Below are positions 4,774-48,065 of a stretch of 64,000 nucleotides of DNA, piece after piece. Each line of letters begins with the position of its first letter. Position 1 is the stretch's first letter. The notes below the pieces were generated by a model. The model did no database searches. It saw only the letters and a program-made list of their open reading frames with translations, and was not told where the DNA came from. This DNA is from Candidatus Omnitrophota bacterium (lineage in GTDB: Bacteria; Omnitrophota; Gorgyraeia; Gygaellales; Profunditerraquicolaceae), in the NCBI GenBank assembly GCA_016867115.1, contig VGKG01000004.1, positions 6,536 to 70,535 of the forward strand. Reading direction: 5' to 3'. A program made the translations under genes and the position numbers.

Positions 4774-5955
4774 TTACTTTTCGGAAAGAGCCGCGATTCC
4801 TGGTAAGCTCTTTCCCTCAAGAAATTCTAAAGAAGCGCCGCCGCCGGTAGAGATATGCGTCATCTTATCTTCCAGTTTGAACTTGGCGACCGCTGCCGCG
4901 GTATCCCCGCCGCCGATGATCGTGGTTGCTTTCAATGTACTGATGAACTTGGCGACCTCAAGTGTCCCCGCGCTAAAGGCATCCATCTCAAAGATGCCGA
5001 GGGGTCCGTTCCAGACGATCGTCTTTGCGGACTTAAGCTTATCCTCAAAGAGCAGGATTGTCTTGGGCCCGATATCCACGGCGATCTTTCCCGCGGGGAC
5101 ATCCTCTCCTGAGATCTCAGCCGCGGCATTCGCATCAATATTATCCACTACCACGTTGTCTACGGGAAGGAGTATCTCCTTATTCAGGGACCCTGCCTTT
5201 TCGAGAATGGATTTAGCCAGGTCTAATTTATCCTTTTCAAGCTTGGAGTTGCCGATCTCTTTGCCCTTGGCCTTTAAAAAAGTATAGGCCATGCCGCCGC
5301 CGATCAGGATCGCATCGCACTCGGGAAGCAGATTCTCAATCACTCCGATCTTATCCGAGACCTTAGCGCCCCCTAAGATGACCATGAACGGCCGGCCGGG
5401 ATTCTGCACGGCATTCCCCAGGTACCGGATCTCTTTGTCCAGAAGAAAACCCGCCGCGGCTTTCAGGTAATGCGTAACTCCCTCGGTCGAGGCATGCGCG
5501 CGGTGGGCGGTGCCGAAGGCATCATTAATATAGACGTCGGCAAGCGAGGCAAGCTGCCTGGCGAAACCGGCGTCATTGGCCTCTTCTTCGGGGTGGAACC
5601 TTAAATTCTCAAGCAAAACCACCCTCTCTTTTGCGCCGTCTATCTCTTTCTTCACGCTGTCGCCTACGCAGTCATTGACGAACCTGACCGGCTCGCCGAT
5701 TAATTCCTGGAGCCTTGCGGCTACGGGCCTGAGGCTGTATTTCTCCACCACCTTGCCGTCCGGCCTGCCCAGATGGCTCATCAGGACCAGTTTCTTTGCT
5801 CCGCTCTGAAGGATGTATTTTATGGTCGGCAGGGTCGCCCGGATACGCGTATCATCGGTAATCTTAAGATCCGCGTCCTGCGGCACGTTAAAATCCGCCC
5901 GCACCAGCACCGTTTTACCCTTTAGATCCAGGTCCTTTAAGCTCATCTTCGCCAT
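4774..5955 (-). CDS. pgk: Phosphoglycerate kinase
   Basis: 393 aa with conserved LMSHLGRP and GGGASLE and full-length similarity pattern. A strong SD AAGGAGG lies 5 nt upstream. Confidence 0.95.
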
Positions 5956-5992
5956 GAGGCCTCCTTAAGTAACCCTGAAATTTGGAAGTCTT

Positions 5993-6021
5993 AATATATA
6001 CTAATCCCGCGGCTTTGTCAA
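5993..6021 (-). promoter_or_regulatory. Putative sigma70 promoter for pgk (-35 TTGACA at 6016-6021; -10 TATATT/TATATA at 5993-6000)
   Basis: The minus strand reads gggTTGACAaagccgcgggattagtaTATATTaag with 17-nt spacing, followed by about 30 nt of leader and the SD AAGGAGG before the pgk ATG. Confidence 0.5.
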
Positions 6022-6126
6022 CCCTCTTTAAATGAGCAGACACTTTACGGAGCGAGTGGAACGAGCGAACGTAAAGTGTAGCCCCTCAAGGGGCGTCTAG
6101 GCACCTTGCCCTATCGGATGGGCAAG

Positions 6127-6150
6127 TGCGCGCTTGCCGCGCGAATTTTT
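6127..6150 (+). terminator. Candidate plus-strand intrinsic terminator-like hairpin (GCGCG-cttgc-CGCGC followed by gaaTTTTT)
   Basis: A GC stem and T-run read directly on the plus strand. It is preceded by at least three further hairpins (6041-6078, 6083-6094, 6112-6126). No plus-strand gene is evident. Confidence 0.3.
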
Positions 6151-6209
6151 GAGCACAATAATCTTTTATCTAGCGAAATCCCGCGTAAGCGGGAACCCGG
6201 CAAATGCCA

Positions 6210-6234
6210 GCAAAATTTTCAAAGAAAATTTTGC
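6210..6234. promoter_or_regulatory. Perfect 11-bp inverted repeat GCAAAATTTTC-aaa-GAAAATTTTGC (operator-like palindrome)
   Basis: Read directly. It lies 6 nt beyond the stop of the 6240-8567 gene. Confidence 0.35.
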
Positions 6235-6239
6235 GGCGT

Positions 6240-46491: not shown

Positions 46492-46509
46492 TTATGTTCC
46501 CCCTTGAGA

Positions 46510-46851
46510 TTATAAGTCTCCTTTGGCTTTTTTTGCGGCCAGATAATCCCATTCCTGTTTCATCAGGTAATACTCTTCTTCTTTCTTTTTGAGGAAGATT
46601 TGCATCAGCTGCATTTTATGCTCAAATCCTTCCTTGGTGAGATGATAGTGTATCTTGCTCATCTTGCCGGGTTTGGTAGTAAAATTTTTAATCTCGACAA
46701 AGCCTTTTTCGATGAGGTTCTTTATGAGGTAATTGGTTTTACCTAAAGAAATGCCGATCCGGTCAGAGAGCTGCCGCTGGGTAAGGCTCGGCTCTGCCTC
46801 GATATGACGGATAATATGCAGGGTTTCTTCTTTTGGGGGTTGTTCAAGCAT
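46510..46851 (-). CDS. EPS-associated MarR-family (winged-helix) transcriptional regulator
   Basis: 113 aa. LTQRQLSDRIGISLGKTNYLIKNLIEKGFVEI helix-turn-helix. It is the first gene of the island. Confidence 0.7.
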   Translation of the reverse strand: MLEQPPKEETLHIIRHIEAEPSLTQRQLSDRIGISLGKTNYLIKNLIEKGFVEIKNFTTKPGKMSKIHYHLTKEGFEHKMQLMQIFLKKKEEEYYLMKQEWDYLAAKKAKGDL

Positions 46852-46858
46852 TGAACAG

Positions 46859-46886
46859 ATTATAGCCTTTTTATGCTAAGTGTCAA
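46859..46886 (-). promoter_or_regulatory. Near-consensus sigma70 promoter (TTGACA-16 nt-TATAAT) ending 7 nt upstream of the MarR-like ATG, suggesting a leaderless mRNA
   Basis: The minus strand reads ccTTGACActtagcataaaaaggcTATAATctgttcaATGcttgaa. -35 is at 46881-46886 and -10 at 46859-46864. Confidence 0.5.
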
Positions 46887-46958
46887 GGATTTTATTAAGT
46901 TTTTAGGCAGGATTTATAATTTTATCAGGTATGTAACTTACTGAAAAATAAGTAGCTA

Positions 46959-46989
46959 TAAAAACGGATGGGAACATATACCCACCCGT
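46959..46989 (-). terminator. Rho-independent terminator downstream of gap
   Basis: The minus strand reads ACGGGTGGG-tatatgtt-CCCATCCGT followed by TTTTTAT. The stem is 9 bp with one mismatch. Confidence 0.6.
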
Positions 46990-47015
46990 TCAACTGCTGA
47001 ACAATAATTATCTGC

Positions 47016-48065
47016 TTACAGCCCTTTTTTGACCATATATTCTGCCAGATCAACTACCCGACAGGAATAACCCCATTCGTTATCGTACCAGGAGAGCACC
47101 TTCACGAAATTATCCTGGATGACTTTTGTACTGGCGGCATCCACTATCGAGCTTAAGGTGCAGTGATTAAAATCCACCGAGACCACCGGGTCAAGAGTGA
47201 GTCCCAGGATCCCCTTCAGGGCGCCTTCCGCTGCCTCTTTATAGGCGGCATTCACTTCTTCGGCGGTGGCCTTCTTTAGAAGGGTACAGCTTAAGTCTAC
47301 GACCGAGACATTAGGCACGGGAACGCGGATGGCAAAGCCGTCAAGTTTGCCCTTCAGCTCCGGAATGACCAGGCCGATCGCCTTTGCCGCGCCAGTCGAA
47401 GTAGGGATCATCGAAAGCGCTGCGGCACGCGCGCGCCTCAGGTCCGAATGCGCCATATCCTGGACTCGCTGGTCATTGGTATAGGCATGGATCGTGGTCA
47501 TCAGGCCCTTTTCAATGCCCCATTTGTCATTAAGGATCTTTGCGACGGGCGCAAGACAGTTGGTAGTGCAGGAGGCGTTTGAGACCACATGGTGGTTCTT
47601 GGGGTCATATTTAGATTCGTTTACGCCCATGACGATAGTGATATCCTCTCCCTCAGCCGGAGCAGAGATGATCACCTTCTTTGCACCGCCCTTGGTGATA
47701 TGGTTCTCGGCACCCTTGACCGTCTTTCCCTTCTTATTCACCCCGTCTTTTTTTACGGTAAAAAGCCCGGTTGATTCGACGACGATCTCAACCCCGAGGT
47801 CCTTCCAGGGAAGCTCCGAAGGGTCGCTCTTGCATAACACCTTGATGGCTTTTCCGTCGACGGAGATCCCATCCTCTCCGGCTACCTTCACCTCGCCCGG
47901 GAAACGGCCGTGCACGGAATCATATTTGAGCAGGTGGGCGTTGGTCTTTGCGTCGGTGAGGTCGTTTACCGCCACCAGCTCCAGTTCTTTTGAGTTTTCA
48001 AGGACGGCCCTGGCCACAAGCCTGCCGATCCTGCCGAAACCGTTGATACCGATTTTTACTGCCAT
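47016..48065 (-). CDS. gap: Glyceraldehyde-3-phosphate dehydrogenase, type I
   Basis: [20 protein letters not shown] and [15 protein letters not shown] active-site motifs. SD AGGAGG 8 nt upstream. Confidence 0.95.

What the first reader, a model, noticed from the sequence alone, without database searches (positions are those of the whole stretch)
4774..48065. The conserved gap-pgk-tpiA-secG unit appears split by a roughly 40-kb co-directional glycan island
Reading the minus strand, gap (48065-47016) is followed by a good intrinsic terminator (46959-46989). Next comes an island of about 40 genes from the MarR-like regulator (46851) down to 6240. Then pgk-[four-helix-bundle gene]-tpiA-secG resumes, with its own near-consensus promoter (-35 TTGACA, -10 TATATT at 5993-6021) and a strong SD. 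In many bacteria gap, pgk and tpiA (often with secG) are contiguous and co-transcribed. Here the whole island sits exactly between gap and pgk in the same orientation. I saw no integrase, transposase or tRNA at either edge. Together with the terminator and promoter placement, this suggests an insertion or expansion at this site that created two independently transcribed glycolytic units.
Basis: partly seen in the sequence, partly recalled or inferred. Interest (0 to 1): 0.6.

Follow-up and report, generated by a model that had tools for sequence, protein, structure and literature searches.

The report
Variable surface-sugar locus splitting gap and pgk
In this uncultured Omnitrophota bacterium a 38-kb set of cell-surface sugar genes sits between two glycolysis genes that are normally neighbours. 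Related species carry different cargo in the same slot, so it is a new example of a familiar kind of swap-prone surface-sugar locus, not a one-off oddity.

Summary
On the minus strand the order is gap (47016-48065), a real terminator, a 38.3-kb block of 38 glycan genes (46851 to 8577), a membrane spermidine-synthase-like gene (6240-8567), then a promoter and pgk-[IVP]-tpiA-secG.

The block has lower GC (0.446 vs 0.52; GC3 0.50 vs 0.64, p about 1e-9). It has no integrase, tRNA or flanking repeats.

Some Omnitrophota relatives have identical flanks with gap and pgk 9-111 nt apart, as do most other phyla sampled. Adjacency is therefore most likely the older state.

The split is not private to this genome:
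- One related contig carries a different 29-kb glycan cluster in the same slot.
- Another starts a different cluster after gap with a homologous regulator.
- Others hold only the spermidine-synthase-like gene, toxin/defence cargo, or a decayed ligase gene with orphan copies of the gap 3' end.

The gap terminator and pgk promoter are conserved in relatives that lack any island, so this island did not create them.

Best reading: an O-antigen-like, Wzx/Wzy-type polysaccharide locus in a recurrently reused variable slot. It resembles the galF-gnd type of locus. It is a new member of a known kind, of moderate-to-low interest.

The parts
47016..48065 (-). gap (type I GAPDH), the upstream conserved flank of the slot
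   Evidence: Pfam Gp_dh_N and Gp_dh_C. It is 85-90% identical to the Gap of many Omnitrophota.
46957..46991 (-). Intrinsic terminator after gap
   Evidence: An 11-bp stem with an 8-nt loop, then T5. Free energy -20.5 kcal/mol, z = -3.9. Equivalent terminators follow gap in L180, L182, L177, L018, L006 and L010.
46859..46886 (-). Consensus sigma-70-type promoter for the island (TTGACA-16-TATAAT)
   Evidence: 12 of 12 match. It lies 7 nt upstream of the wHTH start codon.
46510..46851 (-). Winged-helix (MarR/HTH_24-like) regulator, first gene of the island
   Evidence: Pfam HTH_24, 9e-13. A 43%-identical homologue is the first gene after gap in L182.
45658..46491 (-). Wzz-like chain-length determinant
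   Evidence: Pfam Wzz, 26.6 bits against a cut-off of 25.5. It has two terminal transmembrane segments. GC 0.365.
37673..45620 (-). Nonulosonic-acid (Pse/Leg-like) module: two PseC/LegC-like aminotransferases, a LegB-like dehydratase, a PIG-L deacetylase, a PseF-like cytidylyltransferase, a radical SAM/SPASM enzyme, WbqC, a NeuB-family synthase and a PseG-like hydrolase
   Evidence: Pfam. NCBIfam hits all fall below equivalog cut-offs.
31908..37673 (-). Tailoring and transfer genes: two SAM methyltransferases, a carbamoyltransferase and a LIC12162-family transferase
   Evidence: Pfam. TIGR04331 scores 399 bits against a cut-off of 225.
30376..31947 (-). Wzx-like flippase
   Evidence: Pfam Polysacc_synt, 23.2 bits, below the 28.2 cut-off. 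At least 9 hydrophobic segments.
22191..30379 (-). Second CMP-sugar module: KdsB-like cytidylyltransferase, HpaI-type aldolase, GmhA-like isomerase, GFO oxidoreductase, 2-hydroxyacid dehydrogenase, IMPase-like phosphatase, three methyltransferases and a hexapeptide acetyltransferase
   Evidence: Pfam. NF009905 scores 318 bits against a cut-off of 255.
12238..22185 (-). Assembly genes: TIGR04326-like protein, two GT2 glycosyltransferases, Wzy-like polymerase (17992-19527), methyltransferase, FemAB/GNAT-like protein, DegT-like protein, polysaccharide deacetylase and epimerase
   Evidence: Pfam and NCBIfam. The Wzy-like protein has at least 10 hydrophobic segments. This is the lowest-GC part of the island, 0.39-0.47.
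8577..12237 (-). Conserved tail module: small Bac_transf initiating transferase (11677-12237), PglF-like membrane 4,6-dehydratase (9797-11629) and a Wzy_C O-antigen-ligase-family protein (8577-9800). This is the downstream end of the island.
   Evidence: Pfam. The same three-gene module is 63-96% identical in L171, L173 and L174 and 42-63% identical in L183. GC is 0.36-0.41 whatever the host GC.
6240..8567 (-). 775-aa fused membrane / spermidine-synthase-like protein. It is a resident gene, not island cargo.
   Evidence: Pfam Spermine_synth; NF037959 scores 53.9 bits against a cut-off of 40. GC 0.545. It lies upstream of pgk in L006, L010, L012, L018, L176, L177, L178 and L183.
5993..6021 (-). 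Promoter of pgk-tpiA-secG
   Evidence: 11 of 12 match. The motif is conserved in most SpmSyn-bearing relatives, with degenerate variants in L006, L012 and L010, although the rest of the spacer diverges.
3161..5955 (-). pgk (4774-5955), 23S_rRNA_IVP-family gene (4350-4718), tpiA (3538-4311) and secG (3161-3541), the downstream conserved flank
   Evidence: Pfam. pgk-tpiA-secG are collinear in nearly all the Omnitrophota-type loci recovered.
48102..58583 (-). Upstream collinear flank: two GalT-like genes, fmt, priA, MGDG-synthase-like gene, GmhB-like gene, GT2, DegT and two GT9 genes
   Evidence: Pfam. The order is the same in L004, L006, L010, L018, L091, L177 and L179.

Best explanation
The 38.3-kb block (8577-46851) is an O-antigen-like, Wzx/Wzy-type surface-polysaccharide biosynthesis locus. 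It occupies a recurrently reused variable slot between gap and (SpmSyn-)pgk in a group of related Omnitrophota.

The older state is a tightly coupled gap-pgk-tpiA-secG unit. In this group the junction was opened, and gap acquired its own terminator while pgk-tpiA-secG acquired its own promoter. The interval has since held different cargo in different lineages.

In the window the cargo encodes the following functions (inferred from gene content):
- an initiating phosphoglycosyltransferase and a PglF-like dehydratase, which would supply a bacillosamine-type first sugar;
- two CMP-activated acidic-sugar pathways, one Pse/Leg-like and one KdsB-linked;
- many methyl-, carbamoyl- and acetyl-transferases;
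- glycosyltransferases, a Wzx flippase, a Wzy polymerase, a Wzz chain-length regulator and a ligase-family protein.

The cluster is probably transcribed from its own consensus promoter under a winged-helix regulator.

No mobility genes are present. Cassette turnover most likely occurs by recombination in or near the conserved ends: gap/wHTH on one side and Bac_transf-PglF-WzyC/SpmSyn on the other.

Shown: anatomy, composition, synteny in relatives, and conservation of the signals. Inferred: the glycan's role as LPS O-antigen, the transcription units, and the recombination mechanism.
For: Gene content:
- Bac_transf, PglF-like dehydratase, Wzy_C, Wzz, NeuB, two cytidylyltransferases, GT2s and a LIC12162-family transferase.
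- Membrane topologies fit Wzx, Wzy, Wzz and a PglC-like transferase.
- No capsule export genes (Wza/Wzc).

Composition:
- Island GC 0.446 against 0.518 and 0.520 in the flanks.
- GC3 0.496 against 0.643, Mann-Whitney p = 1e-9.
- Tetranucleotide distance to the flanks is 2-3 times higher, and it varies along the island in a mosaic pattern.

Ancestral adjacency with identical flanks: L001, L004, L007, L015, L022, L023, L091 and L096, plus most other phyla sampled.

Same slot, different cargo:
- Ga0598270_0000614 has gap-28.8 kb-SpmSyn-pgk. Only the tail module is homologous: Bac_transf 42%, PglF 63%, WzyC 43-48%.
- L182 has gap-wHTH (43% identical) followed by an rml/PMT-type cluster.
- L173 has PglF-WzyC-SpmSyn.
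- L177 has 3.2 kb of RadC/ParE cargo.
- L178 has defence-like cargo, a WzyC pseudogene remnant and two orphan gap 3' ends.
- L006, L010 and L018 have only SpmSyn.

Lateral exchange of the island end: between L173 and the window, nucleotide identity is 93-95% in PglF and about 89% in WzyC, but about 79% in the adjacent SpmSyn. Both show the same GC step.

Signals: terminators after gap and the pgk promoter motif are conserved across relatives.

Precedent: a preprint describes a hypervariable polysaccharide cassette in another Omnitrophota genus (10.64898/2026.05.20.726742).
Against: - The Wzx and Wzy assignments are below Pfam gathering scores (23.2 vs 28.2 bits, and 23.6 vs 26.6 bits).
- The NulO enzymes are below NCBIfam equivalog cut-offs, so the sugars are not identified.
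- A second Wzy_C gene (58570-59916) sits next to the heptosyltransferases and may be the true WaaL. The island's Wzy_C protein could instead be an O-oligosaccharyltransferase, or something else; its best NCBIfam hit is IctB-like, far below cut-off.
- No within-population variation was seen. Contigs from the JGI samples and Logan sequencing runs examined are 99.9-100% identical over the parts of the island they cover.
- The order of events is unresolved. Five-protein and two-protein trees give a near-star radiation with weak support. A single old insertion with repeated loss cannot be distinguished from repeated gain.
- In Ga0598270_0000614 the island is not clearly lower in GC than its flanks.
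- Transcription was not measured.
Confidence: 0.75

Rival explanations
1. A recently acquired mobile genomic island (an integrative element or prophage-like island), inserted by a site-specific recombinase into the 3' end of gap.
For: The block has lower GC and a different oligonucleotide signature. In relative L178, two orphan ~70-nt copies of the gap 3' end bracket 8.4 kb of defence-like cargo. That is the classic footprint of integration into a gene's 3' end.
Against: The window has no integrase, transposase or tRNA. No copy of the gap 3' end occurs anywhere else in its 64 kb, and there are no flanking direct repeats. The cargo is a coherent biosynthetic cluster whose end module is native to Omnitrophota, with hundreds of homologues at 50-67% identity. 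A second species has the same architecture with different content.
Confidence: 0.12
2. Ancestral arrangement: gap and pgk were never linked in this lineage, the glycan locus has always been there, and adjacency in other Omnitrophota is secondary.
For: Only 6 of 17 informative Omnitrophota loci show adjacency. Several related lineages share the split. The local phylogeny is unresolved.
Against: Outgroup Omnitrophota (L015, L096, L022, L023) and most other phyla have gap-pgk 3-150 nt apart. L015 and L096 also keep the same GalT-GalT-gap-pgk-tpiA context. Re-creating a 9-nt coupled junction with identical flanks several times is less parsimonious than opening it. The island's composition differs from both flanks.
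Confidence: 0.1
3. Assembly chimera: the contig wrongly joins a glycan cluster from another organism between two halves of a glycolytic operon.
For: The source is a metagenome contig, and there is a sharp GC step at 8570 and at 46900.
Against: Both junctions are reproduced at 99.9-100% identity in independent assemblies from other samples and assemblers. These are L082, L083, L084 (an 88.7-kb contig) and L085. The same GC step at WzyC|SpmSyn occurs in a different organism, L173.
Confidence: 0.02

Closest known systems
Enterobacterial O-antigen and capsule loci at fixed chromosomal sites (E. coli/Salmonella rfb between galF and gnd; Klebsiella cps). Comparison from general knowledge.
   Same: A Wzx/Wzy-type cluster with sugar-nucleotide, glycosyltransferase and processing genes. 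GC is lower than the genome. Conserved housekeeping flanks hold different gene content in different lineages. No mobility genes are present, so exchange by flank recombination is inferred.
   Different: The flanks here are gap and a spermidine-synthase-like gene plus pgk, so the locus interrupts the glycolytic gap-pgk-tpiA unit. The cluster starts with a dedicated winged-helix regulator and a consensus promoter; JUMPstart/ops elements were not looked for. Variation was shown only between species, not between strains.
Streptococcus pneumoniae cps locus (dexB-aliA) and Acinetobacter K/OC loci. Comparison from general knowledge.
   Same: A cassette-like polysaccharide locus with conserved genes at one end of the cluster and a variable centre.
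   Different: A different phylum and different conserved module: here Bac_transf-PglF-WzyC at the 3' end and wHTH(-Wzz) at the 5' end. No serotype collection exists.
Hypervariable polysaccharide cassette reported in Omnitrophota genus JAHKAP01, with the SAR11 hypervariable-region analogy (bioRxiv 10.64898/2026.05.20.726742)
   Same: Same phylum, and the same idea: one surface-polysaccharide locus that diversifies by recombination.
   Different: That cassette was found on or near a large Mu-class element with Wzc/Etk and AlgI/J genes. The passages I read do not mention a link to gap or pgk.
Leptospira rfb-type O-antigen regions carrying LIC12162 and LIC13510 family proteins (NCBIfam TIGR04331 and TIGR04326)
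   Same: The window has a bona fide LIC12162-family transferase (399 bits against a cut-off of 225) next to a NeuB-type pathway, and a weak LIC13510-like protein.
   Different: Only these families are shared. The overall gene order and the genomic site are unrelated.
Genomic islands that integrate into the 3' end of a tRNA or protein-coding gene and duplicate it. Comparison from general knowledge.
   Same: Relative L178 shows duplicated gap 3' ends bracketing cargo at this very site.
   Different: The window's island has no duplicated target, no integrase, and no defence or phage cargo.

Membership tests
Wzx/Wzy-dependent O-antigen-type polysaccharide cluster | Initiating polyprenyl-phosphate sugar transferase | tested here: met
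   Bac_transf PF02397, 197.8 bits against a cut-off of 27. One N-terminal hydrophobic segment.
Wzx/Wzy-dependent O-antigen-type polysaccharide cluster | Wzx flippase | tested here: inconclusive
   PF01943 scores 23.2 bits, below the 28.2 cut-off. The protein is 523 aa with at least 9 hydrophobic segments.
Wzx/Wzy-dependent O-antigen-type polysaccharide cluster | Wzy polymerase | tested here: inconclusive
   PF14296 scores 23.6 bits, below the 26.6 cut-off. The protein is 511 aa with at least 10 hydrophobic segments.
Wzx/Wzy-dependent O-antigen-type polysaccharide cluster | Wzz chain-length determinant | tested here: met
   PF02706 scores 26.6 bits against a cut-off of 25.5, which is marginal. 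The two-transmembrane topology fits.
Wzx/Wzy-dependent O-antigen-type polysaccharide cluster | Ligase (WaaL-type, Wzy_C domain) | tested here: met
   PF04932 scores 54.3 bits against a cut-off of 31.7 for 8577-9800. A second Wzy_C gene at 58570-59916 lies beside the GT9 heptosyltransferases, so which one ligates to lipid A-core is unknown.
Wzx/Wzy-dependent O-antigen-type polysaccharide cluster | Product is attached to lipid A-core on the cell surface | not testable with these tools
   The organism is uncultured. This needs LPS chemistry.
Hypervariable polysaccharide locus at a conserved chromosomal site | Same flanking genes in different lineages | tested here: met
   gap upstream and PglF-WzyC-SpmSyn-pgk downstream in the window and in Ga0598270_0000614. 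Partial views in L182 and L173 agree.
Hypervariable polysaccharide locus at a conserved chromosomal site | Unrelated central gene content between lineages | tested here: met
   tblastn of all 38 island proteins against L180, L183 and L182 finds only the tail module, the wHTH regulator and generic paralogues.
Hypervariable polysaccharide locus at a conserved chromosomal site | Variation among strains of one species or population | tested here: not met
   Contigs from the JGI samples and Logan sequencing runs examined are 99.9-100% identical across the parts of the island they cover. Read recruitment was not possible.
Hypervariable polysaccharide locus at a conserved chromosomal site | Atypical (lower) GC relative to the genome | tested here: met
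   GC 0.446 against 0.52; GC3 p = 1e-9. L173 shows the same step.
Integrase-mediated genomic island | Integrase or recombinase gene at an edge | tested here: not met
   None among the 61 ORFs scanned.
Integrase-mediated genomic island | Direct repeats (att) that duplicate the target | tested here: not met
   No repeat of the gap 3' end or of the junction sequences in the window. Such repeats are present only in relative L178.
Conserved gap-pgk-tpiA(-secG) unit | gap immediately upstream of pgk | tested here: not met
   They are 41 kb apart in the window. The feature is met in relatives L001, L004, L007, L015, L022, L023, L091 and L096.
Pseudaminic/legionaminic acid (nonulosonic acid) pathway | NeuB/PseI-type synthase, CMP-transferase, PseG/LegG-type hydrolase, PseC/LegC aminotransferase and PseB/LegB dehydratase | tested here: inconclusive
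   All five are present at the family level: PF03102 190.8 bits, PF02348 97.5 bits, and TIGR03590 PseG-like 107.6 bits. Every NCBIfam equivalog score is below its cut-off, for example NeuB 206 against 400 and PseF 125 against 206. The pathway type is clear but the exact sugar is not.

The most novel reading that the evidence does not exclude
The gap-pgk junction is a clade-wide 'variable slot' in Omnitrophota. Surface-glycan cassettes, toxin-antitoxin and defence islands, and even alternative gap alleles are repeatedly swapped there. Two routes would be involved: recombination anchored on a low-GC Bac_transf-PglF-WzyC module, and an as yet unidentified element that integrates site-specifically into the 3' end of gap. 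The slot would be the main phage- or host-interaction hot spot of these small-celled, possibly host-attached bacteria.
Probability: 0.4. Interest if true: 0.5.

Novelty: new member of a known kind. Interest (0 to 1): 0.33.

Why it matters
Omnitrophota are uncultured, and some of them are thought to be ultra-small and to live attached to other cells. Their surface glycans are likely central to how they meet hosts and phages, and nothing is known about them experimentally.

This locus gives a defined, easily recognised chromosomal address (gap ... SpmSyn-pgk). At that address, surface-polysaccharide diversity and other accessory cargo can be catalogued across metagenomes, much as galF-gnd is used for serotyping enterobacteria.

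It also gives a clean natural example of a tightly coupled glycolytic operon being broken into two units. Each unit has its own conserved terminator or promoter, and these can be tested with metatranscriptomes.

It does not reveal a new kind of genetic system.

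Tried and rejected
- Searched for att-like direct or inverted repeats across 4000-49000. Found only short chance matches.
- Searched for any second copy of the gap 3' end or its downstream sequence in the window by tblastn and blastn-short. None found.
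- tRNA/tmRNA scan and Rfam scan found nothing.
- The PADLOC scan of the IVP, wHTH, Wzz and unknown proteins gave only two very weak hits, Csa3/CARF-like for wHTH at E about 4e-4. I disregarded them.
- I tried to order the evolutionary events with NJ trees of Pgk alone, Pgk+TpiA, and fmt+GalT2+GalT1+Pgk+TpiA. Internal branches are extremely short and bootstrap support is poor; for example, the SpmSyn-bearing group is recovered in 11 of 100 replicates. I do not rely on these trees beyond the outgroup placement of L015 and L096.
- I looked for island-free strains in the same population through exact-protein look-ups. The apparent break 100-290 nt upstream of pgk in several contigs is only a 113-nt versus 36-nt intergenic indel variant, not an alternative junction.
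- I tried to reach the true gap gene of the L178 contig through the Gap homologue list. It was not among the best 120 hits.
- The contigs for the closest Gap (P0243, 90% identical) have gene calls but no DNA.
- I considered that the 775-aa gene was island cargo. I rejected this on composition and on its conserved position in relatives.
- I considered a capsule (Wza/Wzc) system. No export genes are present.

Full report
**Anatomy**

All genes in the 64-kb window read on the minus strand.
- gap 47016-48065
- pgk 4774-5955
- a 23S_rRNA_IVP/four-helix-bundle gene 4350-4718
- tpiA 3538-4311
- secG 3161-3541

gap is followed by an 11-bp stem and T5 hairpin at 46991-46957 (-20.5 kcal/mol, z = -3.9). 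A perfect TTGACA-16-TATAAT promoter at 46886-46859 follows it.

Then come 38 co-directional ORFs from 46851 down to 8577. pgk has an 11 of 12 promoter at 6021-5993 and an AAGGAGG ribosome-binding site.

There is no tRNA or tmRNA, no Rfam family, no integrase or transposase among 61 ORFs, and no flanking repeats.

**What the block encodes**

From the gap side:
- a winged-helix regulator and a Wzz-like protein with two terminal transmembrane segments;
- a nonulosonic-acid module: two PseC/LegC-like aminotransferases, a LegB-like dehydratase, a PIG-L deacetylase, a PseF-like cytidylyltransferase, a radical-SAM/SPASM enzyme, WbqC, a NeuB-family synthase and a PseG-like hydrolase;
- two methyltransferases, a carbamoyltransferase and a LIC12162-family transferase (399 bits, cut-off 225);
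- a Wzx-like flippase;
- a second CMP-sugar module built around a KdsB-like cytidylyltransferase (318 bits, cut-off 255) and an HpaI-type aldolase;
- GT2 glycosyltransferases, a Wzy-like polymerase, a deacetylase and an epimerase;
- a small Bac_transf initiating transferase, a PglF-like membrane dehydratase and a Wzy_C ligase-family protein.

This is the parts list of a Wzx/Wzy-dependent O-antigen-type pathway, without capsule export genes. The Wzx and Wzy calls are below Pfam cut-offs. The sugar-pathway enzymes are below NCBIfam equivalog cut-offs. The class is therefore clear, but the exact glycan is not.

**Edges and composition**

The island GC is 0.446, against 0.518 and 0.520 in the two flanks. 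Mean GC3 of the 38 island genes is 0.496, against 0.643 for 22 flank genes (Mann-Whitney p = 1e-9).

The deviation is mosaic. It is strongest at 8.6-20 kb (GC about 0.41-0.42), intermediate at 20-31 kb, and mild at 31-45.6 kb.

The 775-aa gene at 6240-8567 has core-like composition (GC 0.545, GC3 0.70). It has hundreds of Omnitrophota homologues at 50-57% identity. The island therefore ends at 8577, not at 6240.

**Origin of the window**

The window is 100% identical to JGI contig Ga0194125_10000198. Both junctions recur at 99.9-100% identity in independent assemblies from other samples and from Logan runs. This excludes a chimera.

The only population variant I saw is a 113-nt versus 36-nt indel in the SpmSyn-pgk spacer.

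**Synteny**

Pgk-anchored loci from species-representative genomes place the window in Omnitrophota, with a best Pgk identity of 82%.

Direct adjacency with matching flanks:
- L001 and L004 carry ...priA-fmt-GalT-GalT-gap-pgk-tpiA(-secG), with gap and pgk 9 nt apart.
- L015 and L023 also show direct adjacency. L015 has the same upstream order; L023 lacks the two GalT genes.
- L091 (111 nt) and L096 (3 nt) are Gap-anchored metagenome loci with the same order.
- L007 and L022 show direct adjacency too.
- 34 of 51 informative loci from other phyla, and 40 of 54 Gap-anchored metagenome loci, are also adjacent.

Adjacency is therefore the most likely ancestral state.

Other states in Omnitrophota:
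- L006, L010, L012 and L018 have the SpmSyn-like gene directly upstream of pgk. In L006, L010 and L018 the full order gap-SpmSyn-pgk is visible.
- L003 has groEL-guaB-guaA-dnaE before pgk. L024 has miaA-hisG. L019 has a radical-SAM cluster.
- L021 has glycan genes before pgk, and L013 has a Wzy_C gene before pgk.

**The slot is reused**

I followed homologues of the island's last gene and of SpmSyn and Gap to their contigs.

- L173: PglF (96% amino-acid identity), WzyC (83%), SpmSyn (82%). This is the same right-hand junction in a closer relative.
- Contig Ga0598270_0000614 (42.7 kb)...fmt-GalT-GalT-gap (89%), then an AbiE-like pair, ManC, a sugar dehydrogenase, epimerases, DegT and further genes, ending in GT4, Bac_transf, an acetyltransferase, DegT, PglF (63%), WzyC (43-48%), SpmSyn (52%), pgk (82%), tpiA, secG. 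There are 28.8 kb between gap and SpmSyn. No orthologues of the window's central genes are present.
- L182: gap (86-87% identical) is followed by a homologous wHTH regulator (43%) and an rml/PMT-type cluster.
- L177: 3.2 kb of RadC/HTH/ParE cargo between gap and SpmSyn.
- L178: at least 9 kb of defence-like cargo (AbiE, a PLD/DrmC-like nuclease, MazE), a decayed C-terminal WzyC fragment next to SpmSyn, and two orphan ~70-nt copies of the gap 3' end bracketing 8.4 kb. This is an att-like footprint.
- In lower-GC Omnitrophota (L171, L174) the Bac_transf-PglF-WzyC module lies inside glycan clusters that are not next to pgk.

**Evidence for lateral exchange**

Between L173 and the window, nucleotide identity is 93-95% in PglF, about 89% in WzyC, and about 79% in the adjacent SpmSyn. 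Both genomes show the same GC step, 0.35-0.39 rising to 0.50-0.56.

PglF and WzyC keep a GC of 0.33-0.41 in hosts whose local GC ranges from about 0.36 to about 0.52.

**Regulatory signals**

The TTGACA-N17-TATATATT motif before pgk is conserved in L183, L177, L178, L176 and L018. Variants occur in L006, L012 and L010. The surrounding spacer diverges in all of them.

The adjacent-type relatives have no room for a promoter. Every relative in which gap is not next to pgk has a strong terminator straight after gap.

The division into two glycolytic transcription units therefore goes with the opening of the junction in this group. It is not tied to the arrival of this particular island. Transcription itself is untested.

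**Limits**

Trees from two or five flanking proteins give a near-star radiation with weak support. I cannot say whether the slot was opened once and emptied several times, or filled several times.

No strain-level cassette variation was detectable with the data I could reach.

**Comparison with known systems**

Functionally and architecturally this matches the well-known class of polysaccharide loci that sit at fixed sites between housekeeping genes and vary by cassette exchange. Examples from general knowledge are galF-gnd, dexB-aliA and the Acinetobacter K locus.

A recent preprint reports a hypervariable polysaccharide cassette in another Omnitrophota genus.

What is particular here:
- the address, inside the gap-pgk-tpiA-secG unit;
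- the conserved wHTH head and Bac_transf-PglF-WzyC tail;
- the use of the same slot for defence and toxin cargo in relatives, including att-like duplication of the gap 3' end.

**Verdict**

This is a new member of a known kind, and interest is about 0.33.

Noticed in passing
window 4350-4718 (-): A low-GC (0.37) 23S_rRNA_IVP / four-helix-bundle gene is wedged between pgk and tpiA. The same slot is occupied in L006 (75% identical) but empty in L001, L004, L018, L177 and L183. Other copies (38-40% identical) sit between priA and fmt in L006 and L177. It behaves like a small mobile insertion of unknown function.
   Followed up: partly
window 22191-30379 (-): This is a second CMP-sugar module. It combines a KdsB-like cytidylyltransferase (above the NCBIfam cut-off) with an HpaI/HpcH class-II aldolase in place of a KdsA/NeuB-type synthase. 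It also holds a GmhA-like isomerase, a PGDH-like dehydrogenase, an IMPase-like phosphatase, a GFO oxidoreductase, three methyltransferases and an acetyltransferase. It may be an undescribed route to a modified ulosonic acid.
   Followed up: partly
L178 735-812 and 9254-9322: Two orphan ~70-nt copies of the gap 3' end bracket 8.4 kb of defence-like cargo (AbiEii/AbiEi, a PLD/DrmC-like nuclease, MazE). A decayed WzyC fragment (9604-9888), SpmSyn and pgk follow. This suggests that an element integrates site-specifically into gap in a relative. No integrase is visible in the 10 kb I could reach.
   Followed up: partly
gap genes of window, L001/L004/L015/L091/L180/L182 versus L006/L018/L177 versus L010: Three Gap types occupy the same syntenic position: 85-90%, about 61% and about 50% identical to the window's Gap. 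Pgk stays at 74-83% throughout. The relatives with the window-type Gap include those with glycan islands. All three with the 61% type lack a glycan island. gap itself seems to be replaced at this hot spot.
   Followed up: partly
window 6083-6195: A 113-nt intergenic segment rich in short palindromes, between the SpmSyn-like gene and the pgk promoter, is replaced by an unrelated 36 nt in contig L086 from the same sample. Several assemblies break here.
   Followed up: yes
window 48102-50127 (-): Two tandem paralogous GalT/HIT-like genes (DUF4931/DUF4921-type) lie immediately upstream of gap. The pair is conserved in that position across most of the Omnitrophota relatives recovered. Its function is unclear.
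   Followed up: no
window 54675-63286 (-): An LPS-core-like cluster lies 7-15 kb upstream of gap. It holds two GT9 heptosyltransferase-family genes, a second Wzy_C ligase-family gene, three GT2 genes, DegT and a 702-aa protein with about 15 hydrophobic segments and no Pfam hit. In L174 homologues of these genes directly follow a PglF-WzyC glycan cluster.
   Followed up: partly
L019 1896-8883: In a more distant low-GC Omnitrophota, five radical-SAM genes in a row lie directly upstream of pgk, in place of gap.
   Followed up: no
L171 5411-8123: Bro-N domain genes and an AAA_14/DUF4143 ATPase are inserted between Bac_transf and PglF inside another Omnitrophota glycan cluster. This hints at mobile or phage-derived insertions within these loci.
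   Followed up: no
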